The notes: generated by a model not told the origin, from the sequence alone. A stretch of 32,000 nucleotides of DNA from Trichodesmium erythraeum IMS101 (GCF_000014265.1 NC_008312.1:5910001-5942000), one strand, 5' to 3'; counted from the stretch's first letter, positions 3-25,319 are shown. A program made the numbers and translations.

Positions 3-830
3 TTGGATGCTGATGGCAATATCACTACACAATCCCTTAGTTCGAGGTCTTATTCCCCTTCAGGTTCAGGAAATGGAGGAGCAATTAATTTGGATGCTGG
101 TGGCAATATTACTATACAATCCCTCCATTCCAGGTCCACTGCCAGATCATTCTCAGGAAATGGAGGAGCAATTGATTTGGATGCTGGTGGCAATATCACT
201 ACACAAGAACTCTATTCCTATTCCTATTCCAGCTTAGACAACTCAGGAAATGGAGGAGCAATTAGTTTGGATGCTGGTGGCAATATCACTACACCATCTC
301 TCAATGCATATTCTTTTTCCCCCTCAGGCAACTCAGGAAATGGAGGAGCAATTAGTTTGGATGCTGGTGGCAATATCACTACACAATCCCTCAATTCTTA
401 TTCCTATTTGTCTTCAGAAAAAGGGAACTCAGGAAATGGAGGAGCAATTAGTTTGGATGCTGGTGGCAATATCACTACACAATCCCTCAATTCCTTTTCC
501 TCTTCAGAAAAAGGTAACTCAGAAAATGGAGGAAAAATTGATTTGGACGCTGGTGACTATATCACTACACAAGATCTCAAGTCCTATTCTTTTTCTCCCT
601 CAGGCAACTCAGGAAATGGAGGAGCAATTAATTTGGATGCTGGTGACTATATCACTACACAAGACCTTGATTCGAGATCCTCTTCCAGCTCAGTCTCAGG
701 AAATGGAGGAGCAATTAATTTGGATGCTGGTGACTATATCACTACACAAGGCCTTGATTCCTATTCGTACTCAGAAAAAGGCAACTCAAGAAATGGAGGA
801 GACATAAAACTGAATGCCAATAAAATAAAA
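3..830 (+). repeat. About 10 in-frame tandem units of 87-96 bp (29-32 aa; GNGGAI(S/N/D)LDAG(G/D)(N/Y)ITTQ.L.S.S.S) inside the CHAT gene
   Basis: The motif ggaaatggaggagcaatt recurs at 69, 156, 246, 336, 432, 612 and 699, with degenerate copies near 521 and 789. This periodicity also creates the spurious alternative-frame ORFs 7..237 and 250..807. Confidence 0.9.
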
Positions 831-3800
831 CCAACCTCGGATAATGAAGAAAAACTAACAATACATACATTTTCATTCAGGAAAAATAAGTTTGGGGAAG
901 GAAAAGGTGGAGACGTTAACATTACCACTAACAATCTCAGCAAGACAGAAATATTTACACTATCTTCCCGCTCAGAATCAGGAAAAGTAACCATAGAAAG
1001 TAAGACACAAGAACCACTTCAAATCAATGACTCATCCATTACTACAAGTGTACAAGTAAGCGTACAAATATGTTCCTCCTGTGGAACAAGACTAGTTGGT
1101 GAAATAGGAGATACTCGATCAGGCGAAGTCTCTATCAATAGTTCCGGCGACCTCAGCCTCAACAACGTCACCATAGAAAGCGACACCAAAAGTAACCAAG
1201 CCGCAGGAGACGTCAACATCTACAGCATTGGCAACATTACACTTGACAAGACGGATATCATCAGTACTACCAACTCCCAAGGCAAAGCCGGCCAAATCAA
1301 CTTAGAAACCAAGCAAAACATAGAACTCACCAACAACAGCAAAATCTTAGCCAACACAGAAGGAACCGGAAACGCAGGTCAAATAAACATAGAAGCTAAC
1401 AACCTCATCCTAGACCAAAACACCAAACTAATCACAGAAACCGCAAGAGCTGGAAACCCCGGAGACATAAATATCCAAGCTAACACCATAGAGATAGGAG
1501 AAGGCGCTAAAGCCAGCACCACAGTCTTAACAGGTTCAACCAGCACCGGAGAAGGAGGCAACATCACCATCAACACAAACGAACTCAACGTCACAGGAAA
1601 ACTCGGAATATTTGCCGAAACCGAAGCGAGCAAAAACGCCGGTATCCTTCGTATATCACCCTACAAAAACAACCCCAACCTAGACATCATCTTCAAAAAC
1701 GAGGGCTTCATCTCCGCCTCTACCTCATCCACAGGCAACGGAGGCAGCATATTCATACAAGCCCCAGAAAACATAAAAATAACAGGCAAAGGATTCATTG
1801 CCACAGAAACATCAGGTACAGGTAACGCCGGAATTATTGATATCAAAACCAACAACCTGAGAATATCCAATGGAGTCAAAATCAATGCTTCCACAGAGGA
1901 CCAAGGCAACGCCGGCGAAATCAAAATCAACACCACAGACTTCACCCTAGAAAAAGGAACAAGTCTAACAACAGAAACCAACAGCGCCGGACTAGCTGGA
2001 AACATAGAAATAAACACCAAAAAACTCACAATAGGAAAAAACGCCCAAATAAGTGCCACAGCACTAGAAAGAGCCAGCAACAAAGAAGCAGGCGCAGGCG
2101 GCAACATCACCATCAACGCCAACAACCTAGAAATCTCAGGAAAACTAGGAATATTCGCCGAAACCGCAGGAGAAAGTCCCGCAGGCACCCTCACCCTGAA
2201 ACCATATAAAAACAACCCCAACCTAAATATAGAATTCAAACAACAAGGCTTCATTTCTGCTCGCACCAGCTCCAGTGGCAACGGAGGCAACATAAATATT
2301 CAAGCACCAGAAAAAATAAACATTACAGGAGACGGAAAAATATCAGCGGAAACCACAGGGAGTGGAAACGCAGGCACCATCAATATCCAAACAGAAAACC
2401 TCAACCTATTAGAGCAAGTAGCCATAAGCGCCGAAACCAACAGTCAAGGTCAAGCCGGAAATATTGAAATTAACTCCCAAACAGTTACCATAGGAAAAGG
2501 CACAGAAATAAGTGCGACAGCCGGAAAAAAAGCAACAAGCACCGGAGATGGAGGCAACATCACTATCAACACCAACGACTTAGAAATCTCAGGAAAATTA
2601 GGAATATTTGCTGAAACTAAAGGAGTATCAAATGCTGGCACTTTAACCCTCACCCCTTACAAAACTAACCCAAACCTCAATATTACGTTCACCGACCAAG
2701 GCTTCATTTCTGCTCGCACCAAATCTCTAGGAAAGGGAGGTGATATCAATATATTGGCACCAGAAAACATAAATATTACAGGAGATGGTCAGATAACAGT
2801 TGAAACCAAAGGTAGTGGAGATGCAGGCATTATTAACATTGAAACAGAAAACCTGAAAATAGCCGAAAATACAAAAATATCAGCATCCACATCTGACAGC
2901 GGAAACGGAGGCGAAATCAAAATTAATTCTAGTGAAACATTCCAACTGCAAGGCCGAATATTAACAGAAACCAGAGGAACAGGAGATGGAGGTATTATCA
3001 ATATTGAAGCAGGAGAAATAACTGCGCCTAACAGTAGGATATCAGCTAAAAGTACCGACGCCGGCAACGCAGGTACAATAGATATTACCGCCCAAGGAGA
3101 TATTACCACAGGAGCTGTTACCTCCGCCGCCAAAAATGACATGGAAACCTCTGACGGAGGTAGTATCAGTATTACCAGTGAACAAGGAAAAATTAACGCT
3201 ACCCGAGCAATTCAATCATTTTCAGAAGGAGGGAACGCCGGAGATGTTACCCTCAAAGCCCAAACAGACATAACCGCCAAAACCATAAGTTCTCACGGAA
3301 AGCAAGAGGGTGGTCAAATAACCATCACATCAGAAACCGGAAACATTGACACCAGTAGTGGTAACCTCTTAGCCAACTATTCAGGAGGCGGTGATGCCGG
3401 AGACATTACAATGGAAGCACCCCAAGGAAATATTACCACAAATGATATCTATTCCTACGCCGACGGAGACGGAGGTCAAATAAGTATTAAAGCCGGAAAC
3501 AATATTAATATAAAAGTAAACAGTAATATTATTTCCGCATCAGAACCACCAAATGAGGGGAACAGTGACAAACAAGGACAAGGAGGAGATATTACTCTAG
3601 AAGCAGGCAACAATATTAATACTACAACAGCTAAAATATATTCTGGTGCCAACGAGGGCGACACAGGAAAAATTGATATTACTGCAGATAACGCAATAGA
3701 AACAGGCAAAATAGACTTAGCATCAGGTTTTGTCAGACAACAAGAAAAAGTCAACGAAAACTTTACTATTATTCCCAAACCAGAAGGAGAAGCAACTCAA

Positions 3801-6800
3801 GGAAAAGCCAGAGAGATCCGACTCCGCAGCAGAAACAGTACAATAGATACTACAGGCGGCACAATAAATTCTCGTTCCCCAGACGGTACTGGAGATATTA
3901 TTATCAATGCCAAAGGAAATATTAGCACAGGGAAATTAGAAGCCAGCGCCCTTAACCCAGACAAGCCTACCACAGGTGGAGACGTTAATATTATCAGTGA
4001 GCAAGGAGAAATTAATGCAACTCAAAACATAGAAACCTTCTCAGAAAAAGGTACAGCAGGAGATGTAAATATTACTGCAGTTGGTCAGATCCAGACAAAT
4101 AATATTCTTTCTCAGGGAATGGAACGGGGGGGTAATATTCAAGTCAAGAGTGAAGGAGTAGAAATTCATTCCAGGGGTAATATAGACTCATATTCAGAAC
4201 AAGGAAGAGGAGGAAGTGTCAAAGTAGATGCCCCAGAAAGAGTAAATTTAGCAAATGTATCATCCTACGGTATGACAGAAAGTGGTGACTTAATTATTCA
4301 GAGCCAACAAGCAGAAGTTAATACAGTTAATGTCACAACACAAGCTCCGGAGGGATATAGTGGTCGTATAGTTATCAACGGAACAGAAGTAGGTACGGGA
4401 AATTTAAGTTCTATCGCTAGAACAAGTGCCGGGGAAATTAATGTAGAAGCGACAGATGGTTCCATTGCCACCTATGATATAGAAATGACATCAGATGGAA
4501 CAATAGGAGCTTTAACACTGAGAGCAAGAGAAAATATTACTACAGAAGATGTTACTCAAAATGCTGGAGAGGGAAATGTAGATATTAATATTGAGTCAGG
4601 AAGAGATCAAAATATCGGCAATACTACTCAAATAGCAAAAACAGGGGATACTAATAATGTTCAAACTGCAGGCCGCGACCAAAATAGTGGGAATATGAAT
4701 CAGAATTCTGGAGGTAATGCTAACAATATTCAAACTGCAGGTCGCGACCAAAATGGTAGGAATATGAATCAGAATTCTGGAGGTAATGCTAACAATATTC
4801 AAACTGCAGGTCGCGACCAAAATGGTAGGAATATGAATCAAAATTCTGGAGGTAATGCTAACAATATTCAAACTGCAGGTCGCGACCAAAATATTGAAAA
4901 TGTGAATCAAAATTCTGGAGGTAATGCTAACAATATTCAAACTGCAGGTCGCGACCAAAATATTGAAAATGTGAATCAAAATTCTGGAGGTAATGCTAAC
5001 AATATTCAAGCTGCAGGTCGCGACCAAAATATTGAAAATGTGAATCAAAATTCTGGAGGTAATGCTAACAATATTCAAACTGCAGGTCGCGACCAAAATA
5101 TTGAAAATGTGAATCAAAATTCTGGAGGTAATGCTAACAATATTCAAACTGCAGGTCGTGACCAAAATATTGAAAATGTGAATCAAAATTCTGGAGGTAA
5201 TGCTAACAATATTCAAACTGCAGGTGGGGAGAAAAATATTGGGCAAGTCACTCAAAATGCCGAGAATAATACCATTAATATTCAAACCGCAAGTGGGGAG
5301 CAAAATATTGAACAAATTAATCAAACTTTTGGCAACGAATCTATCAACATTCAAGATCAAGAAATTAATCAAAGTCTAGATACTACTTCAGCAATTTCTA
5401 ATAACAATGTACCTAATAATCAAGTACTTAATCAAGAAGATTTCTCTAATAATAACAATAACAATATCGAAGATAATTTCACTACAAATCCCTCAAATAA
5501 TAAAAACATTTTATCAAACCTTACCCAGTCTCAAAGGTCTGAATTAATTTCAAATTCTACCCCCAGCAACAATAACCAAACAACTAATACAAACACAGCC
5601 CAAGAACAAACAGAATCATCTATTAATAGTACAACAGATACAAAAAAAATCTTAAACACAATTAATGCTATAAATACCAATTATCTCACAGTTTCTGCCA
5701 ATTTAGAGGAAGCAGTAACAGTATTAGAACAAAGCCGTACTAACGAATATTCAAATTATTTTGGAACAGATTTTAAAGAACAATTTATAAACCAAAAAAC
5801 ACCCCGAGAAATATTAACAGATATGGCTGCTAAAATAGGAAAAGAATCTGCAGTTGTTTATATTAATGCTTATCCAGAGGAATTACAAATAATCTTATAT
5901 ACCAAAGATGGTCAGCCTATTCTTAAAACTATCCCCGAAGCTAACCGTAAAAAATTAGAGAAAGTAGTTATAAATTTCCTCAAATTAACGACAAGTCCTG
6001 CCTATCGTGATTCTAATAGTTATCTATCACCAGCAAAACAATTATATGATTGGTTTATTGCACCTATATCAGCAGAATTAGAAGCAGCAAATCTCGATAC
6101 CTTATTGTTCAGTATGGGTGAAGGTTTGCGTATTTTACCAGTGGCAGCATTACATGATGGAGAACAATTTTTAATTGAGAAATATAGCCTAAGTTTAATT
6201 CCGAGTATCAGCTTAATGGATACAAATTATCGCCCACTTCAAGGTACTCAAGTATTAGCTATGGGAGCTAGTCAGTTTATCAATGAAGAACCTTTACCAG
6301 CAGTACCTGTGGAGGTAGAAACAATTTCTGAAAAGCTATGGGAAGGTAGTAAATTTTTGAACGAAGAATTTACCCAGAATAATTTGTTAACTCAAAGAAA
6401 AAATTATCCCTATCCTATTATTCACCTAGCTACCCATGCAACATTTAATAGAGGAAAACCTAGTAATTCTTACATTCAGCTATGGGGTAATGAACAAATA
6501 AAGTTAAACCAAGTGCGGGAGTTGGGTTGGAGTAACCCATCGGTTGACTTGTTGGTATTGTCTGCTTGTCGCACTGCTGTAGGAAATAGAGAAGCGGAAT
6601 TAGGGTTTGCAGGGTTAGCAGTAGCAGCGGGAGTGAAGTCAGCTTTAACGAGTCTTTGGAGTGTGAGTGATGAAGGGACATTGGCCTTAATGACAGAGTT
6701 TTATACTTATTTAAATGATGCTAAGATCAAGTCAGAGGCATTAAGACAGGCGCAGTTAGCAATGTTGCAAGGGAAGGTGGTTATTACAGGTGGGGAGTTG

Positions 6801-6920
6801 AGGGGAAGCAGCACTCGTGGTGAGGTGAAGCTACCTTCGGCGTTGGCAAATGTCAATAATCAAAATTTATCTCATCCTTATTATTGGGCAGGGTTTACTA
6901 TAGTTGGTAGTCCTTGGTAA
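3..6920 (+). CDS. Giant repeat-rich beta-helical (filamentous-haemagglutinin-like) protein with a C-terminal CHAT (caspase-like) protease domain. The 5' end lies outside the window.
   Basis: An uninterrupted frame runs from the window edge to TAA at 6918-6920 (2305 codons). The N-terminal two thirds are G/N/T/S/I-rich repeats typical of parallel beta-helix adhesin-like proteins (GNAG(Q/E)I.I, GNGG.I.I.A). The last ~400 aa (about nt 5670-6917) look like a CHAT domain, with the dyad context IIHLATHATF (His codon 6435-6437) and LLVLSACRTA (Cys codon 6567-6569) and the ending HPYYWAGF. Confidence 0.85.
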   Translation: MDADGNITTQSLSSRSYSPSGSGNGGAINLDAGGNITIQSLHSRSTARSFSGNGGAIDLDAGGNITTQELYSYSYSSLDNSGNGGAISLDAGGNITTPSLNAYSFSPSGNSGNGGAISLDAGGNITTQSLNSYSYLSSEKGNSGNGGAISLDAGGNITTQSLNSFSSSEKGNSENGGKIDLDAGDYITTQDLKSYSFSPSGNSGNGGAINLDAGDYITTQDLDSRSSSSSVSGNGGAINLDAGDYITTQGLDSYSYSEKGNSRNGGDIKLNANKIKPTSDNEEKLTIHTFSFRKNKFGEGKGGDVNITTNNLSKTEIFTLSSRSESGKVTIESKTQEPLQINDSSITTSVQVSVQICSSCGTRLVGEIGDTRSGEVSINSSGDLSLNNVTIESDTKSNQAAGDVNIYSIGNITLDKTDIISTTNSQGKAGQINLETKQNIELTNNSKILANTEGTGNAGQINIEANNLILDQNTKLITETARAGNPGDINIQANTIEIGEGAKASTTVLTGSTSTGEGGNITINTNELNVTGKLGIFAETEASKNAGILRISPYKNNPNLDIIFKNEGFISASTSSTGNGGSIFIQAPENIKITGKGFIATETSGTGNAGIIDIKTNNLRISNGVKINASTEDQGNAGEIKINTTDFTLEKGTSLTTETNSAGLAGNIEINTKKLTIGKNAQISATALERASNKEAGAGGNITINANNLEISGKLGIFAETAGESPAGTLTLKPYKNNPNLNIEFKQQGFISARTSSSGNGGNINIQAPEKINITGDGKISAETTGSGNAGTINIQTENLNLLEQVAISAETNSQGQAGNIEINSQTVTIGKGTEISATAGKKATSTGDGGNITINTNDLEISGKLGIFAETKGVSNAGTLTLTPYKTNPNLNITFTDQGFISARTKSLGKGGDINILAPENINITGDGQITVETKGSGDAGIINIETENLKIAENTKISASTSDSGNGGEIKINSSETFQLQGRILTETRGTGDGGIINIEAGEITAPNSRISAKSTDAGNAGTIDITAQGDITTGAVTSAAKNDMETSDGGSISITSEQGKINATRAIQSFSEGGNAGDVTLKAQTDITAKTISSHGKQEGGQITITSETGNIDTSSGNLLANYSGGGDAGDITMEAPQGNITTNDIYSYADGDGGQISIKAGNNINIKVNSNIISASEPPNEGNSDKQGQGGDITLEAGNNINTTTAKIYSGANEGDTGKIDITADNAIETGKIDLASGFVRQQEKVNENFTIIPKPEGEATQGKAREIRLRSRNSTIDTTGGTINSRSPDGTGDIIINAKGNISTGKLEASALNPDKPTTGGDVNIISEQGEINATQNIETFSEKGTAGDVNITAVGQIQTNNILSQGMERGGNIQVKSEGVEIHSRGNIDSYSEQGRGGSVKVDAPERVNLANVSSYGMTESGDLIIQSQQAEVNTVNVTTQAPEGYSGRIVINGTEVGTGNLSSIARTSAGEINVEATDGSIATYDIEMTSDGTIGALTLRARENITTEDVTQNAGEGNVDINIESGRDQNIGNTTQIAKTGDTNNVQTAGRDQNSGNMNQNSGGNANNIQTAGRDQNGRNMNQNSGGNANNIQTAGRDQNGRNMNQNSGGNANNIQTAGRDQNIENVNQNSGGNANNIQTAGRDQNIENVNQNSGGNANNIQAAGRDQNIENVNQNSGGNANNIQTAGRDQNIENVNQNSGGNANNIQTAGRDQNIENVNQNSGGNANNIQTAGGEKNIGQVTQNAENNTINIQTASGEQNIEQINQTFGNESINIQDQEINQSLDTTSAISNNNVPNNQVLNQEDFSNNNNNNIEDNFTTNPSNNKNILSNLTQSQRSELISNSTPSNNNQTTNTNTAQEQTESSINSTTDTKKILNTINAINTNYLTVSANLEEAVTVLEQSRTNEYSNYFGTDFKEQFINQKTPREILTDMAAKIGKESAVVYINAYPEELQIILYTKDGQPILKTIPEANRKKLEKVVINFLKLTTSPAYRDSNSYLSPAKQLYDWFIAPISAELEAANLDTLLFSMGEGLRILPVAALHDGEQFLIEKYSLSLIPSISLMDTNYRPLQGTQVLAMGASQFINEEPLPAVPVEVETISEKLWEGSKFLNEEFTQNNLLTQRKNYPYPIIHLATHATFNRGKPSNSYIQLWGNEQIKLNQVRELGWSNPSVDLLVLSACRTAVGNREAELGFAGLAVAAGVKSALTSLWSVSDEGTLALMTEFYTYLNDAKIKSEALRQAQLAMLQGKVVITGGELRGSSTRGEVKLPSALANVNNQNLSHPYYWAGFTIVGSPW
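1554..3000 (+). repeat. Three in-frame super-repeats of ~450-545 bp (150-180 aa modules) inside the CHAT gene
   Basis: The anchor gg(a/c)ggcaacatcac(c/t)atcaac occurs at 1554, 2097 and 2550. At the protein level each module repeats GGNITIN.N.L...GKLGIFAET...PYK.NPNL.I.F..(E/Q)GFISA.T...G.GG.I.I.APE.I.ITG.G. Confidence 0.8.
4665..5216 (+). repeat. Eight near-identical in-frame 69-bp tandem repeats (23 aa: TAGRDQN(I/G)(E/R)N(V/M)NQNSGGNANNIQ) inside the CHAT gene
   Basis: actgcaggtcgcgaccaaaat (first copy has c for t at base 9) starts at 4665, 4734, 4803, 4872, 4941, 5010 (gctgcagg variant), 5079 and 5148, an exact 69-bp period. More diverged copies flank the block (about 4600-4664 and 5217-5340). 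Confidence 0.95.
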
Positions 6921-14766: not shown

Positions 14767-15670
14767 ATGAATTCTGAATGCTATTAGCTCAAATATTAGT
14801 ATTGAAAAATCTCAAAATTCTAGACTTGGTAAATAAATTTTTTCGGGCCGTAATCTTCTGAATTTAAGTCCCAAACAAATAGCAGAATTAAAGCAAAATC
14901 TGTAAAAAAATGGTGTGATTTTTATCCGCAACCAAAATCTGACGGCATCTAAGTTAACAGAATTTGCCAAACAGACCTTTAGAAATTCAAGCCTTGGTCA
15001 TCGCCGCCCAAAACCTGTAGATCCTGAAATTCCTGCATACTGACAAAGTTCAGGGTCTGCTATTTTAGGAAATTCTAAAAGATTATCTCATAATGTAGTA
15101 GGTAAAATTGATTGGCAATGGCATCACGACAAAGACCTTCTCCCAACAACTAATGGGTTAAAGATGAATACTCCTTATGTTGTCATGTTATATAGTATAA
15201 TAACTTCCCCATAAGGCATTGACGGACAGCCCCATAGAACTGACTTTCTAGATATGATACAAGCTGATAATAACTTTGAATCTCAATATCAACAGCAGTT
15301 AGAAAAGCTTTCGATGTATCATTTTTCTCCTGTACCTCCACCACCAGGGATAGATATTCCTAGGAAACTGCATCCTCTAGTATCAACCCATCAAATAACT
15401 GGACATAAAGGTTTATATTTAGGTTCAGACACTTCTACTATACAGGGACTTGAAGATAAACTTGATTTGGCAAAGCAATATTGGGTAGAGTTATTTGAAA
15501 AAATTCTTAATTTTACACCTTTTTATAGCTATCTTTGGCAAGCTGGAGATATTGTATTTTGGAATAACTCTCAAGTTATGCACACTGGTAAAGCGTACAA
15601 ATATACTAAGTATCAACGCATTGCTTTGCGTATTGGCGTCGTGAATAATGGTGATAACTATAACTGCTAA
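14767..15670 (+). pseudogene. TauD/TfdA-family Fe(II)/2-oxoglutarate dioxygenase inactivated by four in-frame stop codons, probably with a 1-nt shift near the start
   Basis: One frame (positions = 2 mod 3) reads a colinear TauD-like protein from ~14771 to TAA at 15668-15670. Readable segments are ISIEKSQNSRLGK*, IFSGRNLLNLSPKQIAELKQNL*, KNGVIFIRNQNLTASKLTEFAKQTF..., ...IDWQWHHDKD (HxD iron motif) and ...WQAGDIVFWNNSQVMHTG (second His). Stops are at 14834, 14903, 15041 and 15212. Only the last 138 codons (15254..15670) remain as an ORF. The ATG at 14767 is in a different frame. Confidence 0.75.
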
Positions 15671-17247: not shown

Positions 17248-18693
17248 TTATTTATTGAATAATTCCTGTTGTAAACGATAAATTATTGTATCAGGTTCCA
17301 TCTGACTTAAAATATCCTGAATAACTATATCTTGCCCCAAATCTCCCCAAGTACAACCATTTTCCAAATAAACTTTAGCAGCACTGCCAATCGCATAAGT
17401 TCCATAAGCAGCTACAGAAGCTTGAGTAATAGCAACTCCTGTATAAGAAATAATATTAACCTTTCCTAAACCTAATAATAAACTAGTTCCCAAATCACCC
17501 AACAATATACCACCAGCACTAAAAATAATTATTTTCCAAAGTTTGCCTGCTTCATAGCTAGTCATCGGTAAATTATAAAGACGAGACAAAGAGCGAATTA
17601 AAGCTAAATCTATTACTGTCGTTCCAACTACATCAATAATAGTAATAGGATTAAAAGCAATAGCTAAAGCTTTATATTTAGCAAAATCCCAGATTAAATC
17701 ATCAGCTTCATTTTGTTTAATCTTAACAGTTTTCTGAGCAATACTTACTTCAGCTTTTCTAGCTTGAAGTAACGCATTTAAAGCTAAAAGTGATCGTCCT
17801 TCCCTCTCTAAAATAGTAATTATTTTCTGTCGCAACTCATCTATTTTAGGAGATGGAGTTTCCCATTCATGAGTCACTTTACCATCAGGCATTTCTATTA
17901 TTACAGGTAAAGGAGTTGGTTCTGCTGCCACCATTACTACTTCAAAAGTTGGGTAAATATTATCTAATTCTCCTGACTGAAAAACAGCAATATTTTGTAA
18001 ATTCTTATAGATTTCCTGTCGTTCCACCTCTGAATATAAATCTATTTTATTAAACACTAAAATTAACGGCTTTTTAGATTTTTTTAACTCATACAAAGCA
18101 TCATATTCAGTGCGAGTAATATCTCCAGAAACAACAAATAAAATTAAATCAGCTTGGCGAGTAACTTCCTTCGCCATTTCTCCACGAACTTGATCTGCTA
18201 CTTCATCTAATCCTGGAGTATCTATTAAGTCTACTTTTGCTACTTCTTGTTGATGGAAATTAACGAAAATATTAGGAGTCCATCTAATCGAACGTGGCCA
18301 TTTAGTTACACCATTAAGAGGACCTGTTTCTAATATTTTTTCACCTAATAAAGCATTTAATACTGCTGACTTACCGCGACTGACCAGACCAAATACAGCT
18401 ATTTGAATTACTCCTTGGTCAAGCTTATCAATATTTGATTTTAATAATTCTAATTGGGTTTTAACAGTAGATGAGAATTCAGGGTTAGTTGTTTTATACG
18501 AGGCATTTTGCCATACAGAATATCTATTTAAAGCTCTTTGTAAACTTGCTTTAGCCCGTTTCCAATGAATTTTACTTTGTTTACAATAACTTTCTGTTGA
18601 CTGAGAATTTTCTGTAATTATTTCTGGATATATATTTGAGTGATTCAAGGTTAGACTTGCCTTAGATAATTTAGTAGGAAATAAAAGTATCAT
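17248..18693 (-). CDS. P-loop small GTPase (HSR1/Era-like G domain) fused to a C-terminal DUF697-like membrane domain
   Basis: 481 codons. G1 is GLVSRGKSAVLNALLG, G3 is DTPGLDE and G4 is NKID. The C-terminal ~150 aa are Gly/Ala-rich hydrophobic segments. It is a paralogue of the gene at 21920..23413. Confidence 0.85.
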   Translation of the reverse strand: MILLFPTKLSKASLTLNHSNIYPEIITENSQSTESYCKQSKIHWKRAKASLQRALNRYSVWQNASYKTTNPEFSSTVKTQLELLKSNIDKLDQGVIQIAVFGLVSRGKSAVLNALLGEKILETGPLNGVTKWPRSIRWTPNIFVNFHQQEVAKVDLIDTPGLDEVADQVRGEMAKEVTRQADLILFVVSGDITRTEYDALYELKKSKKPLILVFNKIDLYSEVERQEIYKNLQNIAVFQSGELDNIYPTFEVVMVAAEPTPLPVIIEMPDGKVTHEWETPSPKIDELRQKIITILEREGRSLLALNALLQARKAEVSIAQKTVKIKQNEADDLIWDFAKYKALAIAFNPITIIDVVGTTVIDLALIRSLSRLYNLPMTSYEAGKLWKIIIFSAGGILLGDLGTSLLLGLGKVNIISYTGVAITQASVAAYGTYAIGSAAKVYLENGCTWGDLGQDIVIQDILSQMEPDTIIYRLQQELFNK

Positions 18694-19149
18694 TAGTAAT
18701 GATATAATTTTATCAAATCAACTGACATAATTTCTAAAAGATTCCTGGTTTAGTCACCGAAAAGTTTATAATTGGTATAAGTTACTTTTTGAGATAAACA
18801 TGAGTAAAAGTTCCAAGAATTTAGAGTTGATAATAGTGATAAATGCTTTTAATATATCAGTTATTTTGGGATGTCTATCAAATTAAGAAAATTTGGTAAG
18901 AGCTGAAGCTCAAAAGACTTTTGAGAAAAATAGTTATCAAATTTCTTAGAGTAAGAGAAAAAAATATTTTTTAATACAGAGTTTTTATCAATAGATATTG
19001 AGCAATAAAATTTTGATAATTTGGTAAATCTCAGAAATTTAAAAAATTGTTCATAAGTAATCTTAAATAAATGATCAGAGAAAATTCTACTTAAATATAT
19101 TATGAATTGAGAACGAATTTTTTACAAGTAGCAATAAATAAAGAAAACT

Positions 19150-21919
19150 ATAAAAATTTTACAGGTCTTTTTCTAATTTCTCAACTTTGATAAAATTAGT
19201 ATCTGTGGGAGTAAGAAAATATTTTGCTCAGTATATATATCTTAGTCTTCTGAAATAAGAGTCGCTACTGAAAAATTATCAGTATACTTAATTATTTACC
19301 AGAGGGAATTATCATCTATTGCCACATTATTTGGTCAGAGCTGAGATAAATTTGAGCTACTTTATGGCACCGGATATGAGATAAATTCCAATTGTTTCTC
19401 CTGTGGCAAAATATGACTCATTACCTGAGTGATAACCTGAGTGTTCAAAGACTTTAAGAAATTATTTTTTGAGTTCTGCTAAATATATTTTGACCAACTT
19501 TTCCTAATTTCTCAACTTTGATAAAATTAGTATCTGTGGGAGTAAGAAAATATTTTGCTCAGTATATATATCTTAGTCTTCTGAGATAAGAGTCCCTACT
19601 AAAAAATTATCAGTATACTTAATTATTTACTAGAGGTAATTATCATCTATTGCCACATTATTTGGTCAGAGCCTCTGTGGCAAAATATGACTCATTACCT
19701 GAGTGACAAAAGACTTCAATAAATTATTTTTTGAGTTGTGCTAAATATCTTTTTACCAACTTTTCCTAATTTCTCAACTTTGATAAAATTAGTATCTGTG
19801 GGAGTAAGAAAATATTTTGCTCAGTATATATATCTTAGTCTTCTGAGATAAGAGTCGCTACTAAAAAATTATCAGTATACTTAATTATTTACTAGAGGTA
19901 ATTATCATCTATTGCCACATTATTTGGTCGGAGCCAAGGCAAATTTGAACTGCTTTATTGCGCCGGAGATGAGATAAATTCCAATTGTTTCTCCTGTGGC
20001 AAAATATGACTCATTACCTGAGTGATAACCTGAGTGTTCAAAGACTTTAATAAATTATTTTTTGAGTTGTGCTAAATATCTTTTTACCAACTTTTCCTAA
20101 TTTCTCAACTTTGATAAAATTAGTATCTGTGGGAGTAAGAAAATATTTTGCTCAGTATATATATCTTAGTCTTCTGGGATAAGATTCGCTACTAAAAAAT
20201 TATCAGTATACTTAATTATTTACGAGAGGTAATCATTATCTATTGCCACATTATTTGTTCGGATCTAAGGCAAATTTGAACTGCTTTATTCCGCCGGAGA
20301 TGAGACAAATTCTAATTGTTTCCCCTGTGGAAAAATATGACTCATTACCTGAGTGATAAAAGACTTCAATAAATTATTTTTTGAGTTGTGCTAAATATCT
20401 TTTTACCAACTTTTCCTAATTTCTCAACTTTGATAAAATTAGTATCTGTGGGAGTAAGAAAATATTTTGCTCAGTATATATATCTTAGTCTTCTGAGATA
20501 AGAGTCGCTACTAAAAAATTATCAGTATACTTAATTATTTACTAGAGGTAATTATCATCTATTGCCACATTATTTGGTCGGAGCCAAGGCAAATTTGAAC
20601 TGCTTTATTGCGCCGGAGATGAGATAAATTCCAATTGTTTCTCCTGTGGCAAAATATGACTCATTACCTGAGTGATAACCTGAGTGATAAAAGACTTTAA
20701 TAAATTATTTTTTGAGTTGTGCTAAATATCTTTTGACCAACTTTTCCTAATTTCTCAACTTTGATAAAATTAGTATCTGTGGGAGTAAGAAAATATTTTG
20801 CTCAGTATATATATCTTAGTCTTCTGCGATAAGATTCGCTACTAAAAAATCATCAGTATACTTAATTATTTACGAGAGGTAATCATTATCTATTGCCACA
20901 TTATTTGGTCGGAGCCAAGGCAAATTTGAACTGCTTTATTCCGCCGGAGATGAGACAAATTCTAATTGTTTCCCCTGTGGAAAAATATGACTCATTACCT
21001 GAGTGATAACCTGAGTGTTCAAAGACTTCAATAAATTATTTTTTGAGTTGTGCTAAATATCTTTTTACCAACTTTTCCTAATTTCTCAACTTTGATAAAA
21101 TTAGTATCTGTGGGAGATAAGAAAATATTTTGCTCAGTATATATATCTTAGTCTTCTGGGATAAGGTTCGCCACTGAAAAATTATCAGTATACTTAATTA
21201 TTTACGAGAGGTAATCATTATCTATTGCCACATTATTTGGTCAGAGTCAAGGCAAATTTTAACTGCTTTATTCCGCCGGAGATGAGACAAATTCTAATTG
21301 TTTCTCCTGTGGCAAAATATGACTCATTACCTGAATGATAACCTGAGTGTTCAAAGACTTTAAGAAATTATTTTTTGAGTTGTGCTAAATATCTTTTGAC
21401 CAACTTTTCCTAATTTCTCAACTTTGATAAAATTAGTATCTGTGGGAGATAAGAAAATATTTTGCTCAGTATATATATCTTAGTCTTCTGGGATAAGGTT
21501 CGCCACTGAAAAATTATTAGTATACTTAATTATTTACGAGAGGTAATCATCATCTATTGCCACATTATTTGGTCAGAGCTGAGATAAATTTGAGCTGCTT
21601 TATTGCGCCGGATATGAGACAAATTCTAATTGTTTCTTCTGTGGCAAAATATGACTCATTACCTGAGTGACAAAAGACTTCAATAAATTATTTTTTGAGT
21701 TGTGCTAAATATCTTTTTACCAACTTTTCCTAATTTCTCAACTTGGATCAAATTAGTATCTGTAGGAGATAAGAAAATATTTTGCTCAGTATATATATCT
21801 TAGTCTTCTGCGATAAGAGTCGCTACTAAAAAATTACCAGTATACTTAATTATTTACTAGAGGTAATTATCATCTATTGCCACATTATTTGGTCGGAGCC
21901 AAGGCAAGTTTGAACTGCT
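19150..21919. repeat. Tandem array of 8 full and 1 distal partial copies (unit 262-332 bp) of the 3' terminal ~320 nt of the GTPase gene at 21920..23413
   Basis: The anchor ctaatttctcaac occurs at 19173, 19504, 19766, 20097, 20416, 20747, 21078, 21410 and 21730, with the parental homologue ctaattgatcaat at 22051. The periods are 331, 262, 331, 319, 331, 331, 332, 320 and 321 bp. No ORF of 60 aa or more exists on either strand. A more decayed copy probably extends to ~18890. Confidence 0.95.
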
Positions 21920-23413
21920 TTATTGCGCCGGAGATGAGACAAATTCTAATTGTTTTCCCTGTGGCAAAATATGACTCATTACCTGAGTAACAAAAGACTT
22001 CAAGAAATTATTTTCTTGGGTTTTACTAAATACACCTTGAATAATTGTTCCTAATTGATCAATATTCACGGAATTAGTATCTGCTTGAGTAGTCAAATAT
22101 TCTACTAAACTCATACCTGCTACTCTTGTCAAATAAGCAGCACTTACTGCTTGAAATGCACCACCAGCAACAAAAGTTAAACTGTTACTTTTAAGTAGAG
22201 TAGTTAATGTTTTGGTAGATAGTTCTACTAGTCCTAGTTTTAACATTAACTCTGCCATAGTACCTGCTACTTGTTTACCTTTTTCTATAGAAAATTTTTG
22301 CTCATATATAGCACTTAAGTCTACTACTAATTGAGTATTTATAGCTGCTGTTGCTAATAAGTCTAAAGCTGGAACTGGATTAGCAAATGCTGTAGCAGCA
22401 GCTATCCATTGATATTTTTCAATGACAGGAAGCGCTCGTTCTTTTCTGATTTTATTTAAAATATTTTGAGCTTCTAATCTAAATATTTCCGCTTTTCTTA
22501 TAGTAGTTGCCCAGACTAACTTTTCTCTTTCTTCCTCTAATAGTTGGTTTAGTTTTTCTGTTAATTGAGATATTTCTGGTAATGGTTGTTCTATAGATTC
22601 TTGAATAGTGCCATCTTGCTGATATTTTCGCACTTTAATAGGGTTAGGTTTTACAGAAATTCCTACTAAATTTTTCTCTGAGTTAATAGTAGATAATGTC
22701 TCTTTAATTTTTTGGATGACTTGTGGTTTTTGGTCTGGTAAATATAAGTCTTGTTTATTCCAAATTAAGATAAAACGTTGACCAAGAGTTGTTAGTTTTG
22801 ATAAAGCTTGAAATTCTGAATCTATTAAGTCACCTGTAGTCAAAAATAATATCAAATCGTAAGGCGATAGAGGATTAACTTTAGCATATTCATTGTTTGT
22901 TGCCCATTCTGGCTCCCAAGTTATATCAACAACTTTTATTTTTGGTGATTTTTTAGAGTTCCATTGAGACTTTAATATTTCAGTAAAAGTAGTTTTGCCA
23001 ACTCCTTTATTGCCTGTAATAACTATACTTAATTCTTGCCTTTCTAATTCCTGAGTAATAATTTTTACTTGCTGATGTAGTTGAGTAATATCATTACTTA
23101 TTTTTTCAGAGTTATTAATACCTTCTACTGTCATAGAAACCTTATCTATAGTAATAGATAATAAACCGATCGCCTCTTCTGCTGCTTGTTTTGTAGGTGA
23201 TACGATTATACTTGGTTTATGGGAAGGTAGATATTTTGGTCTTTTTAATAACCAAACCCCCAGACTGACTACTATAATTCCTAAAATAGTAGGTTCACTA
23301 TTGTCTGTTATAAAATTTTGGACCTCTGAGAGTAGCCATAACAGTAGAGATAAACCTATTCCCCCTACTAAAATTGGTCGTTTTAATTTTACAGCCATTT
23401 TTATTTTCCTCAA
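21920..23413 (-). CDS. P-loop GTPase-like protein with an N-terminal TM segment and a C-terminal DUF697-like membrane domain; parent gene of the downstream tandem array
   Basis: 497 codons. G1 is ITGNKGVGKTT and G4 is WNKQD. There is a coiled-coil-like middle region and hydrophobic N- and C-terminal segments. An alternative start is Met at 23398. Confidence 0.85.
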   Translation of the reverse strand: MRKIKMAVKLKRPILVGGIGLSLLLWLLSEVQNFITDNSEPTILGIIVVSLGVWLLKRPKYLPSHKPSIIVSPTKQAAEEAIGLLSITIDKVSMTVEGINNSEKISNDITQLHQQVKIITQELERQELSIVITGNKGVGKTTFTEILKSQWNSKKSPKIKVVDITWEPEWATNNEYAKVNPLSPYDLILFLTTGDLIDSEFQALSKLTTLGQRFILIWNKQDLYLPDQKPQVIQKIKETLSTINSEKNLVGISVKPNPIKVRKYQQDGTIQESIEQPLPEISQLTEKLNQLLEEEREKLVWATTIRKAEIFRLEAQNILNKIRKERALPVIEKYQWIAAATAFANPVPALDLLATAAINTQLVVDLSAIYEQKFSIEKGKQVAGTMAELMLKLGLVELSTKTLTTLLKSNSLTFVAGGAFQAVSAAYLTRVAGMSLVEYLTTQADTNSVNIDQLGTIIQGVFSKTQENNFLKSFVTQVMSHILPQGKQLEFVSSPAQ

Positions 23414-25319
23414 AATTCCCTTTATTGTTAATTTTATCTTAACTATCCTTTTTCCATTATGGGTTATCAGTTAACTTTTTAGGTCGGAGCTTCACTTTTC
23501 ATCTCTGGTAGGGAAATAGTTATCTACTCAAATAGAATACTTAAAAATACTAAGTTTTCTTTAAAATACTAAGTTTTCTTTTTTACTCCCCTTAAAAAAT
23601 ATATCTGGCAACTAAAAATTTGGTGCTGGAGTTGCCAATATCCCCATTATTGAAGTTATTAGTATAATTTTTATTTTAACTTTTTATAAGAGGAAGACTT
23701 GAAATACTGAACGTTCTTTTTTTTACCGTCTTAGGTAGGTGTGAAAAAACTTAGTTATATTAAGATTCGTTTACTGACTCTAAGTTCTTCCACACAGTTT
23801 ACTTGAGATAAATTTACATTTTGTTAAATAGCGACAAATTTTAACACCGATCTACTTAAATGGTTATACAAAATTAATTGTATATTTTCTGCCAAATTAA
23901 TTCAAAATATTTTTGACTGCATTTACTCAACTCCCATAACTTTTATAAGTTTCTATTTGTAACCATTTATATCTGATAAAATACTATTATATTTTTATAA
24001 TATTTATTTGAGGATAATATGTTGGCAATTACAAAAATAATCAATTTTTTTATAAGCATTATTTTTATTTTTACCAAAATAAACTATTTTGATATATCGG
24101 TGAATTATCTCTTACTAATACTATTTTTTTTATTGATGTTTTCACAAAAAATATTTATGCAACATAAAACTATGCCACTACTGATGCAACACTAAAATAT
24201 GTATGCTTATAGTTAATAATCTCTACTGAAAAATCCCGATAAATTTAATCACTTCTTTTTTAACTTTTGATTCATAGTTTGCTTCCCTTTTGTGATTATC
24301 TATAAGTATAAATCAATTTAAATTTAAATAGTCACCTACTTTTATCCATATATCTAATCTTTATTTACTTTCTACCCATGTTGTAATTTTAATTCTTCTA
24401 TTGATGTAATTTTTTTCTGATTAAATTATGGTAGTGTCTTTCTATCCTGCTCTTTTTTCTTAACTCCATTCTACCCTATATTCACTGAATTGTTAGCTTC
24501 TTTCATTTCTTTTCTAATTCCTTGGATAAAATTTTTTAAGTTAGCTTTTCGGTCTACTTTTCCTAGTGAACCGAAATTAAATCTCAGAGCTAAATCTCAT
24601 TTAACTACATCTATATTTGGAGATTTTTTGGCAAATTCAACTAAAATTTTACTAAAAAAAATTAGAAACTTATTCCATTTCTAAATCTCAGACATAATGA
24701 TCAATTTCACTATATGTTTTATCCACTGCAGAAAATATATAATTTTTGGCGATCGCTAAGTCAAAAATTAGAGTATTTTTATCTATTTTAATACCTTTAT
24801 CATAATACCCATGAACTTTGAATCCCTTATTTATGTGCTTCATCAATTAACCAAACTCACCATTGTTCATTAAGTTCATTCCGATAAATTTTTGCTCCTA
24901 ATACTTTTTTCAATACTTTACTTTTGTAGATATTGCAGCTATTTACCTCAACTCCATGAATGATAATATTAAATCCTTCTTTTTCTCATAAAAACTATTG
25001 CGCAGATTGTTTTTGCTTTAAAATTATTAGATAATCGATAAAAATAAGTTTATTAAAAATTAGTTATAAATGAAACTATATCAAAGGTTTGAAAAAGGAC
25101 AATATATCCTTTCCCAACCATTGATTTATTTAATTAATTGCAAAATCTTAACTATTCAGGCAATAAAATCAAACTTGTTTAGAGAAGTATAATTTATGAA
25201 AGGCTAAAAACTGATAAATACTTGATTCTGCACGAAGAATAAGGTTAGTATTCTGTCAGACTTCTCTGAGTAAAGCAAATACATAAAATCATCTGTTAAT
25301 ATCACATCTTTTTTCACCT

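What the first reader, a model, noticed from the sequence alone, without database searches (positions are those of the whole stretch)
18890..22250. The 3.2-kb gap between two GTPase genes is a tandem array of decaying copies of the upstream gene's own 3' end
Each 262-332-bp unit aligns colinearly with the last ~320 nt of the CDS at 21920..23413, including its stop codon, so the stop of copy n abuts the start of copy n+1. In gene sense the parent ends ...AAYLTRVAGMSLVEYLTTQADTNSVNIDQLGTIIQGVFSKTQENNFLKSFVTQVMSHILPQGKQLEFVSSPAQ*. The copies read ...DSYLRRLRYIY*AKYFLTPTDTNFIKVEKLGKVGKKIFSTTQKIIY*..NTQV(ITQV)MSHILPQEKQLEFISSPAQ*, which includes stops and a 1-nt deletion relative to the parent, so they are non-coding gene fragments. 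There are eight full and one partial copies, plus a probable older relic at ~18890-19150. This architecture (an expressed gene followed by a same-strand tandem bank of promoterless 3' fragments) formally resembles silent-cassette loci used for gene-conversion variation, such as pilE/pilS and vlsE. A tandem array where each unit is a small-RNA gene is known in cyanobacteria (NsiR1 in Nostocales). I know of no described system in which a GTPase/DUF697 gene carries such an array. Neutral satellite-like amplification remains the null hypothesis.
Basis: partly seen in the sequence, partly recalled or inferred. Interest (0 to 1): 0.85.

Follow-up and report, generated by a model that had tools for sequence, protein, structure and literature searches.

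The report
Gene-tail tandem repeat array in Trichodesmium
Downstream of a conserved GTPase-like gene of the marine cyanobacterium Trichodesmium erythraeum lies a real 2.75-kb array of about nine 320-332-bp repeats, each carrying a broken copy of the gene's end, most likely a by-product of repeated unequal recombination and not a dedicated variation or small-RNA system.

Summary
Window 19167-21919 holds 8 full or near-full units and 1 partial unit (262-332 bp, 92-99% alike), head-to-tail on the strand of the upstream gene. That gene (21920-23398, minus strand) is identical to T. erythraeum IMS101 ABG52882.1, a slr1306-family DUF697 protein.

Only about two thirds of each unit derives from the gene. 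A unit has four parts:
- a 35-nt relic of an older stop region;
- about 65 nt with no similarity to the gene;
- about 124 nt of old gene copy, 65-68% identical to gene nt 1256-1383;
- about 95 nt of young copy, 90-94% identical to the last 96 nt including the stop.

The claimed relic at 18890-19150 is not there.

Homologous arrays or relics follow the orthologous stop codon in Okeania (161-nt units), Dapis (300 nt) and sibling Trichodesmium MAGs. Three other lineages lack them.

I found no conserved RNA structure, terminator, Rfam match, promoter excess or coding signal. Cross-genus identity is close to that of fourfold-degenerate sites.

The best explanation is unequal crossover between a gene-internal segment and its ancient downstream copy, with later exchange between the gene tail and the units. 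The same genome has a published analogue, the Tery_0080 array (Pfreundt 2014), which is massively transcribed. An ncRNA role therefore remains open. The silent-cassette reading is not supported as a function.

The parts
21920..23398 (-). Parent gene: slr1306-family DUF697 protein with a weak P-loop NTPase match, 492 aa from the ATG. It is identical to T. erythraeum IMS101 ABG52882.1.
   Evidence: ORF list. Pfam DUF697 E 2e-40. Exact identity to P0147 = ABG52882.1.
21920..22015 (-). Parental 'young tail': the last 96 nt including the stop TAA. It is 90-94% identical to the 3' end of every unit.
   Evidence: Segment identities.
22016..22143 (-). Parental gene nt 1256-1383: the source of the old gene-derived part of the units (65-68% identity). 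It contains segment G (CAGATACTAAT...GGAA), which acts as the upstream direct repeat.
   Evidence: nhmmer with the cross-species downstream-element profile hits gene nt 1256-1374 with E 1e-10 to 1e-16 in 8 of 8 orthologues. D2 repeat family.
21600..21919 (-). Unit U1 (320 nt).
21268..21599 (-). Unit U2 (332 nt, with the 12-nt internal duplication).
20936..21267 (-). Unit U3 (332 nt).
20605..20935 (-). Unit U4 (331 nt).
20286..20604 (-). Unit U5 (319 nt), used as the anatomy example: 20604-20570 old stop relic; 20569-20505 non-genic head; 20504-20381 old gene copy; 20380-20286 young tail.
19955..20285 (-). Unit U6 (331 nt).
19673..19954 (-). Unit U7. A 69-nt deletion removes its last ~39 nt and the first ~30 nt of U8, which produces the 262-nt period.
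19362..19672 (-). Unit U8, which lacks its first ~30 nt.
19167..19361 (-). Terminal partial unit U9p. It ends just after the downstream copy of segment G (GTTGAGAAATTAGAAAAAG), which is the downstream direct repeat expected from an unequal-crossover origin.
18694..19166 (-). Unique, non-repeat spacer before the downstream gene. It contains no unit relic.
   Evidence: It is 95% identical in the sibling MAG, and 134 nt align at 74% with the thiebautii-type spacer.
19156..19184 (-). Best sigma-70-like site of the region (TTGAGA-17-TAAAAT, 10 of 12 matches), at the junction of the array and the unique spacer. It is a consensus match only.
   Evidence: The sequence is conserved in sibling loci.
17248..18693 (-). 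Downstream gene: GTPase (MMR_HSR1/Dynamin_N) with a DUF697 domain.

Best explanation
The array is a long-lived segmental tandem duplication, a minisatellite-like structure that spans the stop codon of the slr1306-family gene. It is non-coding and most likely has no dedicated sequence-specific function.

Origin. In the common ancestor of Trichodesmium, Okeania and Dapis, a ~190-nt 'downstream element' followed the stop codon directly. Its 3' two thirds were already an old copy of gene nt ~1256-1374.

Amplification. The gene-internal segment and its downstream copy are direct repeats about 321 nt apart. Unequal crossover or replication slippage between them duplicates the interval, which contains the gene tail with its stop, the non-genic head and the old copy. 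Further unequal exchange then expands and reshuffles the array.

Exchange with the gene. Later recombination between the real gene tail and the unit tails keeps the last ~96 nt of the units young. It probably also moves unit variants into the gene's last 12 codons now and then.

What is shown and what is inferred. The anatomy, the flanking direct repeats, the two-age mosaic, the lineage-specific tract boundaries, the independent arrays in other genera and the absence of RNA or coding signals are shown. The recombination mechanism and the lack of function are inferred.
For: Array architecture:
- It starts in gene segment G and ends in a partial unit that stops right after the downstream copy G'. 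This is the R1-X-(R-X)n-R2 pattern expected from recombination between direct repeats.

Step in identity to the parent:
- In this genome identity rises from 65-68% to 90-94% at 96 nt before the stop.
- In the sibling MAGs the tract starts about 115 nt before the stop.
- In Dapis it starts at G/G' itself, about 150 nt before the stop, at 97% identity.
- These are therefore separate recombination events in each lineage.

Other lineages:
- Arrays of different unit structure occur at the same site: Okeania 161 nt x 5, Dapis 300 nt x 1 plus a partial unit, the erythraeum clade 320-332 nt.
- The element is lost in thiebautii-type, R04-type and Okeania hirsuta-type loci, so it is dispensable.

Reshuffling within the array:
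- Higher-order similarity (U5 and U7 99.3%, U4 and U6 97.6%) and mosaic variant patterns show repeated unequal exchange.

Neutral level of conservation:
- Cross-genus identity of the element is 0.60-0.83.
- Fourfold-degenerate sites of the adjacent gene are 0.73-0.81 identical.

No sign of an RNA or coding function:
- No Rfam match, even at E<=1.
- 0 terminator-like sites.
- 25 promoter-like sites against 24.3 expected.
- Single-unit folding z-scores of -1.4 and -1.3.
- Consensus folding energy of 0.0 (sense) and -2.0 (antisense) kcal/mol, no better than column shuffles.
- Only short ORFs with non-ATG starts.

The array is real in nature:
- Short-read contigs carrying the identical gene break 142-760 nt after the stop or collapse the array.
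- One MAG has an N gap inside it.
Against: - A structurally analogous array in the same genome (Tery_0080) is the strongest transcription source in the cell. Lack of predicted signals therefore does not exclude expression.
- The element is the only part of the spacer that still aligns between genera.
- Amplification happened at least three times at this site.
- A 41-column stretch of the unit is invariant among the nine copies (permutation P about 0.014).
- These three observations fit weak selection for the element or for its copy number. They also fit neutral persistence.
- I could not reach expression data for this locus. The supplementary TSS table of Pfreundt 2014 is not held.
Confidence: 0.55

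Rival explanations
1. Multi-copy non-coding RNA locus. Each unit would carry its own promoter and yield a small RNA, as in the Tery_0080 array of the same genome or NsiR1 in Nostocales. If transcribed from the window's + strand, the RNA would be antisense to the last ~96 nt of the parental mRNA and could regulate it.
For: - There is a precedent in IMS101. Seven tandem repeats, each with a duplicated 3' part of the adjacent gene, are transcribed from the strand opposite to that gene into a ~260-nt RNA. This RNA accounts for 44.7% of primary reads.
- 26.7% of IMS101 transcription start sites are non-coding.
- By my own reading of the sequence, every unit and the sibling units contain TTTGATAAAAT on the + strand, which looks like an extended -10 element.
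- A stretch of the unit is invariant among copies.
- The element recurs, amplified, in three lineages.
Against: - No terminator-like sites, and promoter-like sites occur at the chance level.
- No Rfam match.
- No conserved or unusually stable structure on either strand.
- The candidate -10 is not conserved in most Okeania units.
- The locus is not among the 24 strongest start sites listed in the main text of Pfreundt 2014.
- That paper states the Tery_0080 repeat has no similarity elsewhere in the genome, so the two arrays are not homologous.
- The element is absent from three related lineages.
Confidence: 0.25
2. Silent-cassette bank. The units would serve as donors for gene conversion that diversifies the C-terminus of the DUF697 protein, in the manner of pilE/pilS or vlsE.
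For: - The last 32-36 codons of every full unit are open in the parental frame.
- Metagenome-derived alleles of the protein differ from IMS101 almost only in the last 12 residues, and most carry unit-type tails. K481/Y489 matches U1, and E481/I487/Y489/P492 matches other units.
- Contigs L037-39 join the parental gene body to the U1 tail and the start of U2.
- All three of those contigs carry the synonymous SNP 681C>A. Only 1 of 10 parental-tail contigs has it (Fisher p about 0.014).
- The identity step shows that recombination occurred between the gene tail and the units.
Against: - Upstream of the last ~96 nt the units carry stops and a frameshift, so longer conversion tracts would truncate the protein.
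- Differences between units and parent are mostly non-synonymous and drift-like, with no organised variable region.
- The tail is poorly conserved between genera and is probably unimportant.
- The protein family is a cytoplasmic or membrane GTPase-like family, not a surface antigen.
- Chimeric tails are what short-read assemblers produce when bubbles are popped towards the higher-coverage repeat variant. The downstream parts of L037 and L038 are themselves mosaic paths through the repeat.
- Three related lineages lack the array.
Confidence: 0.07
3. cis-regulatory or 3'-UTR element. The downstream element, and so the array, would affect the stability or termination of the parental mRNA. Alternatively it would supply promoter or operator sites for the downstream GTPase gene.
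For: - The element starts directly after the stop codon in every lineage that has it.
- The best promoter-like site of the region (TTGAGA-17-TAAAAT) is formed at the array's last partial unit. It points at the downstream gene and is conserved in the sibling clade.
Against: - No terminator or conserved structure.
- The promoter-like site is not conserved in Okeania.
- In Okeania SIO3I5 the downstream gene is a different one.
- The element is absent in three lineages that keep both genes.
Confidence: 0.1
4. Assembly artefact of the reference genome.
For: Copy number in a Sanger-era assembly of 92-99% identical 331-bp repeats could be off by a few units.
Against: - Independent assemblies from many samples show the same units directly after the gene and break or collapse there.
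- The units differ at 61 alignment columns, which gives an assembler anchor points.
Confidence: 0.03

Closest known systems
Tandem repeat array next to Tery_0080 in T. erythraeum IMS101 (Pfreundt et al. 2014, Sci Rep 4:6187; PMC4143802)
   Same: It is in the same organism. [quoted passage not shown] One end repeat is partial and more diverged.
   Different: It is a different locus: 103-110 kb, against a gene about five locus tags from phoX Tery_3845. Its units are 736-973 bp, not 320-332 bp. Most of each unit is foreign sequence reported to have no similarity elsewhere in the genome. Expression of a ~260-nt RNA from the opposite strand is shown for it by dRNA-seq and Northern blot. Nothing of the kind is known for the array studied here.
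NsiR1 tandem array upstream of hetF in heterocystous cyanobacteria (Ionescu et al. 2010, as summarised in PMC6596454)
   Same: It is a cyanobacterial intergenic array of direct repeats beside a protein-coding gene.
   Different: From my own knowledge of that system, NsiR1 units are short and each has its own regulated promoter, a ~60-nt sRNA and a terminator. They are not copies of the neighbouring gene. Here I found no terminator, no conserved structure and no promoter excess.
Silent-cassette gene-conversion loci (Neisseria pilE/pilS, Borrelia vlsE)
   Same: There is one expressed gene plus promoterless partial copies of part of it. There is also evidence of recombination between the expressed copy and the partial copies.
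   Different: The cassettes here are broken by stops and a frameshift except in the last ~32-36 codons. There is no organised variable/conserved pattern. The target is a conserved GTPase-like protein and not a surface antigen. The bank is absent in sister lineages. What I say about pilS and vls rests on my own knowledge.
Bacterial minisatellites and segmental tandem duplications made by unequal crossover between direct repeats (for example MIRU-VNTR loci of mycobacteria)
   Same: The copies are head-to-tail and intergenic, oriented like the flanking genes, and overlap the stop codon of the upstream gene. The array ends in a partial copy, shows higher-order reshuffling, and breaks short-read assemblies.
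   Different: The unit is much longer than typical MIRUs (40-100 bp, from my own knowledge). It is locus-specific and not an interspersed family. It is demonstrably derived from the adjacent gene, and it has persisted across genera.

Membership tests
Segmental tandem duplication / minisatellite formed by unequal recombination | Head-to-tail copies of one interval, bounded by the two direct repeats that mediated the first duplication, with a terminal partial copy | tested here: met
   The array begins at gene segment G and ends in U9p right after G'. The two repeats are 72% identical and lie 321 nt apart.
Segmental tandem duplication / minisatellite formed by unequal recombination | Signs of continued unequal exchange or gene conversion: higher-order repeats, mosaic variants, lineage-specific tract boundaries | tested here: met
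   U5 and U7 are 99.3% identical and U4 and U6 97.6%. The identity step lies at 96 nt (window), ~115 nt (sibling) and ~150 nt (Dapis) before the stop.
Segmental tandem duplication / minisatellite formed by unequal recombination | Copy-number polymorphism among strains | tested here: inconclusive
   Only short-read assemblies are available. They break, collapse or carry an N gap in the array.
Tery_0080-type expressed repeat array of Trichodesmium (Pfreundt 2014) | Tandem repeats at the 3' end of a gene, each holding a duplicated 3' part of that gene | tested here: met
   the published description is.
Tery_0080-type expressed repeat array of Trichodesmium (Pfreundt 2014) | A transcription start site in each repeat and an abundant discrete ncRNA | not testable with these tools
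   The supplementary TSS table is not held. The locus is not in the top-24 list of the main text.
Tery_0080-type expressed repeat array of Trichodesmium (Pfreundt 2014) | Sequence homology of the repeat units | not testable with these tools
   I could not fetch the Tery_0080 region. The paper states that its repeat has no similarity elsewhere in the genome, which argues against homology.
NsiR1-like sRNA tandem array | An intrinsic terminator in each unit | tested here: not met
   0 terminator-like sites in 18600-23600 on both strands.
NsiR1-like sRNA tandem array | Conserved RNA secondary structure or an Rfam family match | tested here: not met
NsiR1-like sRNA tandem array | A promoter of its own in each unit | tested here: inconclusive
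   Consensus hits are at the chance level. A TGATAAAAT motif on the + strand is present in all units but is not conserved across genera.
Silent-cassette gene-conversion system (pilE/pilS, vlsE type) | Cassettes are intact in-frame segments that can replace the expressed segment | tested here: not met
   Only the last 32-36 codons are open. Upstream there are stops and a 1-nt deletion.
Silent-cassette gene-conversion system (pilE/pilS, vlsE type) | Mosaic alleles at the expression site in populations | tested here: inconclusive
   Alleles with unit-type tails exist in assemblies, and one type is linked to a synonymous SNP. Assembly chimeras are not excluded.
Silent-cassette gene-conversion system (pilE/pilS, vlsE type) | The target is a surface-exposed protein under diversifying selection | not tested
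   The family is an uncharacterised DUF697 / P-loop family. The tail varies between genera without an obvious pattern.
Diversity-generating retroelement (template repeat / variable repeat) | Mismatches confined to adenines of the template copy, and a reverse transcriptase nearby | tested here: not met
   Of 53 differences, 27 have A in the unit and 11 have A in the parent, and other substitution types are common. No reverse-transcriptase domain appeared among the ten window ORFs scanned against Pfam; seven ORFs of 120 aa or more were not scanned.

The most novel reading that the evidence does not exclude
The array could be a functional multi-copy locus of the same kind as the Tery_0080 array. 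Each unit would fire a transcript from the strand opposite to the gene. Because every unit ends in a 90-94% copy of the gene's last 96 nt, these RNAs would be trans-antisense regulators of the slr1306-family mRNA. Recombination with the array would at the same time reshuffle the protein's last 12 residues. Gene-3'-fragment repeat arrays would then be a recurrent, functional class of regulatory locus in Trichodesmium and its relatives, and not junk.
Probability: 0.15. Interest if true: 0.65.

Novelty: new member of a known kind. Interest (0 to 1): 0.35.

Why it matters
About 40% of the Trichodesmium genome is non-coding, and why that fraction is kept is an open question.

This locus gives a second, fully dissected example in IMS101 of a repeat array built from the 3' end of the adjacent gene. 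Unlike the published Tery_0080 case, its origin can be reconstructed step by step from relatives. An ancient partial gene copy downstream of the stop created direct repeats, and recombination between them has amplified the interval several times independently. That is a concrete mechanism for the growth of intergenic DNA in this lineage.

It also has a practical consequence. Short-read assemblies break at the array or produce C-terminal variants of the protein that carry unit sequences. Protein 'alleles' at this locus in databases need checking.

If the array proved to be transcribed like the Tery_0080 array, it would point to a recurring class of ncRNA loci in these globally important nitrogen fixers.

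Tried and rejected
- **Rfam.** No match at gathering thresholds or at E<=1.
- **Terminators and sigma-70 promoters.** 0 terminators; promoter-like hits at the chance level.
- **RNA folding.** One unit folded on both strands gives z -1.4 and -1.3. Consensus folding of 10 units from 5 lineages on both strands is no better than column shuffles.
- **Small ORFs.** Only 31-37-aa ORFs with TTG or GTG starts. The 58-aa antisense ORF annotated in sibling MAGs has only 2 database relatives, both in the same clade.
- **DGR-type template/variable repeat.** Rejected, because the mismatches are not adenine-specific.
- **CRISPR-like array.** Rejected on anatomy: the period is 320-332 nt and there are no unique spacers.
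- **Older relic at 18890-19150.** No similarity found.
- **Dispersed repeat family.**
  - The unit 20-mer gave only 3 hits in the genome collection and 8 in the metagenome collection.
  - None of these hits shares any further similarity with the window.
  - The element profile hits only this locus in all fetched DNA.
The exact-protein look-up returned no contig above 50 kb, although the cluster table credits IMS101 with a 7.75-Mb contig. Genome-wide dispersal in IMS101 was therefore not tested directly.
- **Is this the published Tery_0080 array?** No. phoX (Tery_3845) lies about 8 kb away, and both unit size and position differ.
- **Expression data.** The supplementary TSS table is not held, and Walworth et al. 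2015 is not held.
- **Function of the parent family.** The literature search on slr1306, slr1462 and DUF697 gave nothing useful.
- **Purifying selection on the element.** Not supported. Its cross-genus identity is about that of fourfold-degenerate sites.

Full report

Yes.
- Tandem Repeats Finder reports a 331-nt period with 7.0 copies, 93% matches and score 3913 at 19697-21988. It also reports a 262-nt variant at 19435-19935.
- The repeat finder lists nine copies in register with spacings 331, 262, 331, 319, 331, 332, 332 and 320 nt.
- A unit-specific 20-mer occurs nine times in the 32-kb window, all in the array, against 0 expected.
- Read in gene sense (minus strand), units start right after a TAA and end with a TAA.

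I place the units as follows:
- U1 21600-21919
- U2 21268-21599
- U3 20936-21267
- U4 20605-20935
- U5 20286-20604
- U6 19955-20285
- U7 19673-19954
- U8 19362-19672
- partial U9p 19167-19361

U7 and U8 are fused by a 69-nt deletion. Units are 92-99% identical to one another.

The parent (21920-23398) has a DUF697 domain and weak P-loop matches. The downstream gene (17248-18693) has MMR_HSR1/Dynamin_N domains and a DUF697 domain.

**2. Source organism**

- The parent protein is identical to ABG52882.1 of Trichodesmium erythraeum IMS101.
- Contigs L005 (assembly GCA_018457135.1), L006 and L010 are base-identical to the window over 5.4 kb. Strain GBRTRLIN201 is among the genomes that carry the identical protein.
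- PhoX lies about 8 kb from the gene, and phoX is Tery_3845 (PMC6411698). The gene is therefore about five locus tags away from Tery_3845.
- The IMS101 chromosome could not be reached in the searchable collections. The exact-protein look-up returned no contig above 50 kb, although the cluster table credits IMS101 with a 7.75-Mb contig. The unit 20-mer gave only unrelated chance hits in the genome and metagenome collections.

**3.

The C-terminal tail of the protein (…FLKSFVTQVMSH.LPQ…) is conserved in orthologues from many cyanobacterial genera. The gene is therefore the source and the units are the copies. The units are not colinear copies of the last ~320 nt, however.

I built a profile from the homologous downstream sequences of five lineages. 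It matches all eight orthologous genes only at nt 1256-1374, with E 1e-10 to 1e-16. The part of the profile upstream of the obvious CAGATACTAAT block still finds the colinear position, with E about 0.01. The first ~68 profile positions find nothing.

Combined with the unit-to-parent alignment, a 320-nt unit has four parts:
- **nt 1-35.** A relic of an older gene end with its stop (…GGCTCCGACCAAATAA). It is 70% identical to the present tail. It occupies the position of the stop codon in Okeania, Dapis and thiebautii-type genes (and my reading of those sequences).
- **nt 36-100.** A non-genic 'head' (TGTGGCAATAGAT…TGATAATTTTTT).
- **nt 101-224.** An old gene copy, 65-68% identical to gene nt 1256-1383.
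- **nt 225-320.** A young copy, 90-94% identical to the last 96 nt including the stop.

Identity to the parent therefore changes in a step, not a gradient.

The 'older relic' proposed at 18890-19150 does not exist. The best hit of the unit profile in 18694-19166 has E 0.24 and lies on the wrong strand.

**4. Relatives**

I used exact-protein look-ups of orthologues to fetch their loci.
- **Sibling erythraeum-clade MAGs** (97% protein identity). They have the same 320-nt units. One scaffold has an N gap inside the array, and others end 265-433 nt after the gene.
- **Metagenome contigs with the identical protein.** Most end 142-760 nt after the stop. Two span the gap with a collapsed array.
- **Okeania sp. 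SIO3I5.** It has five 161-nt units directly after the orthologous stop. A contig named Trichodesmium sp., with Okeania-like synteny, has the same type.
- **Dapis sp.** It has one full 300-nt unit made from its own gene end, plus a partial unit.
- **Thiebautii-type, R04-type and Okeania hirsuta-type loci.** They keep both genes but have no element.

The ~190-nt element that follows the stop is thus older than these genera. It has been amplified in at least three different ways and lost at least three times. Okeania units are 68-84% identical to each other, with one pair at 95%. That is as diverged as units from different genera, so tandem copies of the element are ancient.

**5. How the array forms**

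- Gene segment G (within nt 1313-1374) and its copy G' in the downstream element are direct repeats 321 nt apart (D2 family).
- The array begins at G and ends in a partial unit that stops just after G' (GTTGAGAAATTAGAAAAAG|ACCTG). This is the signature of duplication by unequal crossover or slippage between two direct repeats.
- In Dapis the near-identical tract between gene and unit (97%) begins exactly at G/G'. That is a fresh example of this event.
- In IMS101 the young tract begins 96 nt before the stop. In the sibling clade it begins about 115 nt before the stop. Sequence just upstream of the tract is 30-35% diverged from the parent and keeps ancestral codons (VEKLGK) that the parent has since changed.
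- The unit tails were therefore renewed from the gene, or exchanged with it, after the first duplication, and separately in each lineage.
- Within the array, near-identical non-adjacent units and mosaic variant patterns show further unequal exchange.

These steps are inferred from anatomy. The anatomy itself is shown.

**6. Does it do anything?**

Tests for an RNA gene were negative:
- no Rfam match, even at E<=1;
- no terminator-like site;
- 25 promoter-like sites against 24.3 expected;
- single-unit folding z-scores of -1.4 and -1.3;
- no consensus structure across lineages on either strand, with energies of 0.0 and -2.0 kcal/mol that are no better than column shuffles.

ORFs in the array are 31-37 aa with non-ATG starts.

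Cross-genus identity of the element (0.60-0.83) is about that of fourfold-degenerate sites in the adjacent gene (0.73-0.81). Its conservation therefore needs no selection.

Some observations point the other way:
- The element is the only part of the spacer that still aligns between genera.
- A 41-column stretch is invariant among the nine copies (P about 0.014).
- Amplification recurred in several lineages.

None of these is strong.

**7. The published precedent**

Pfreundt et al. 2014 (PMC4143802) describe a >6-kb array of seven 736-973-bp repeats in IMS101 at 103,000-110,200. [quoted passage not shown] The repeats are transcribed from the forward strand into a ~260-nt RNA that recruits 44.7% of all primary reads (also PMC6596454).

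The architecture is the same as here. The locus, unit size and unit sequence differ, and the authors report no similarity of that repeat elsewhere in the genome.

The array studied here is not mentioned in that paper's main text and is not among its 24 strongest start sites. The full start-site table is not available to me. This precedent is the main reason I keep a 25% probability for an ncRNA role.

**8. The cassette idea**

Database alleles of the protein in the same 90% cluster differ from IMS101 almost only in the last 12 residues. Most carry tails found in units:
- G481K with S489Y matches U1.
- E481, I487, Y489 and P492, in various combinations, match other units.

Contigs L037-39 show the parental gene body joined, across a shared 30-mer, to the U1 tail and the start of U2. 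That equals a one-unit deletion.

All three contigs share a synonymous SNP (681C>A) that only 1 of 10 parental-tail contigs has (Fisher p about 0.014). This hints at a real strain haplotype.

Short-read assemblers can produce the same chimeras by following or popping repeat bubbles, and the downstream parts of these contigs are themselves mosaic paths. I cannot decide between the two explanations with assemblies alone.

Even if the exchange is real, several things argue for a side effect of recombination and against a diversification system:
- the units are broken upstream of the last 32-36 codons;
- their differences from the parent look like drift;
- the tail is weakly conserved;
- sister lineages lack the array.

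A DGR-type mechanism is excluded by the mismatch spectrum.

**9. Verdict**

The finding is real and more intricate than described. Its most likely nature is ordinary: a recombination-generated, long-lived tandem duplication that spans a stop codon. It is a second instance of an architecture already published for this genome.

I score interest at 0.35 and classify it as a new member of a known kind. The open question that could raise its value is whether the units are transcribed like the Tery_0080 repeats. That can be answered from existing public data.

Noticed in passing
window 3-6920 (+): A 2305-aa ORF runs off the window start and ends in a CHAT domain (E 2e-70). It carries in-frame tandem repeats with periods of 90, 177 and 276 nt at 1-802, and 69 nt x 9.6 copies (93% matches) at 4651-5312.
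   Followed up: partly
window 15254-15670 (+): A 138-aa ORF matches only the C-terminal third (positions 166-265 of 267) of the TauD dioxygenase profile. It is probably a gene remnant. The same 138-aa ORF is present in related contigs (L001, L002).
   Followed up: partly
window 19156-19184 (-): The best sigma-70-like site of the whole 5-kb region (TTGAGA-17-TAAAAT, 10 of 12 matches) is formed at the junction of the last partial unit and the unique spacer. It lies about 455 nt upstream of the downstream GTPase start codon and is conserved in sibling MAGs. It is a consensus match only.
   Followed up: partly
window 21920-23398 (-) compared with L019, L028 and L029: The erythraeum-clade protein seems to evolve faster than its relatives. 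It has 0.79 amino-acid identity to Okeania and Dapis at fourfold-site identity of 0.73-0.75. Okeania and Dapis share 0.90 amino-acid identity at fourfold-site identity of 0.79.
   Followed up: no
L037-L039 and L004, gene nt 681: The synonymous SNP 681C>A is present in all three contigs that carry the U1-type (K481/Y489) tail. It occurs in only 1 of 10 contigs with the parental tail. This suggests the variant tail belongs to a distinct natural strain.
   Followed up: partly
units U2, U3, U4, U6 and U8 (e.g. window 20666-20690): A 12-nt internal tandem duplication (ACTCAGGTTATC/ACTCAGGTAATG) is present in five of the eight full units. It is absent from the parent, U1, U5 and U7. In the parental frame it would add four residues (VITQ).
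   Followed up: partly
L019 (GCA_051439685.1, labelled Trichodesmium sp.): Gene order upstream (OmpA, Ras-like GTPase, PAS histidine kinase, AhpC, GHL10) and 90% protein identity match Okeania and not Trichodesmium. The genus label of this MAG may be wrong.
   Followed up: no
L014/L015 just after the stop (e.g. L015 6680-6700): In the sibling clade the first ~35 nt of each unit read GCTCAAATAAATTTGAGC, a perfect 7-8-bp hairpin. IMS101 units lack it. I do not know its significance.
   Followed up: no
window 23540-23581: A 19-nt tandem repeat (CTTTAAAATACTAAGTTTT x 2.2 copies, 95% matches) lies in the AT-rich 1.9-kb spacer upstream of the parent gene.
   Followed up: no
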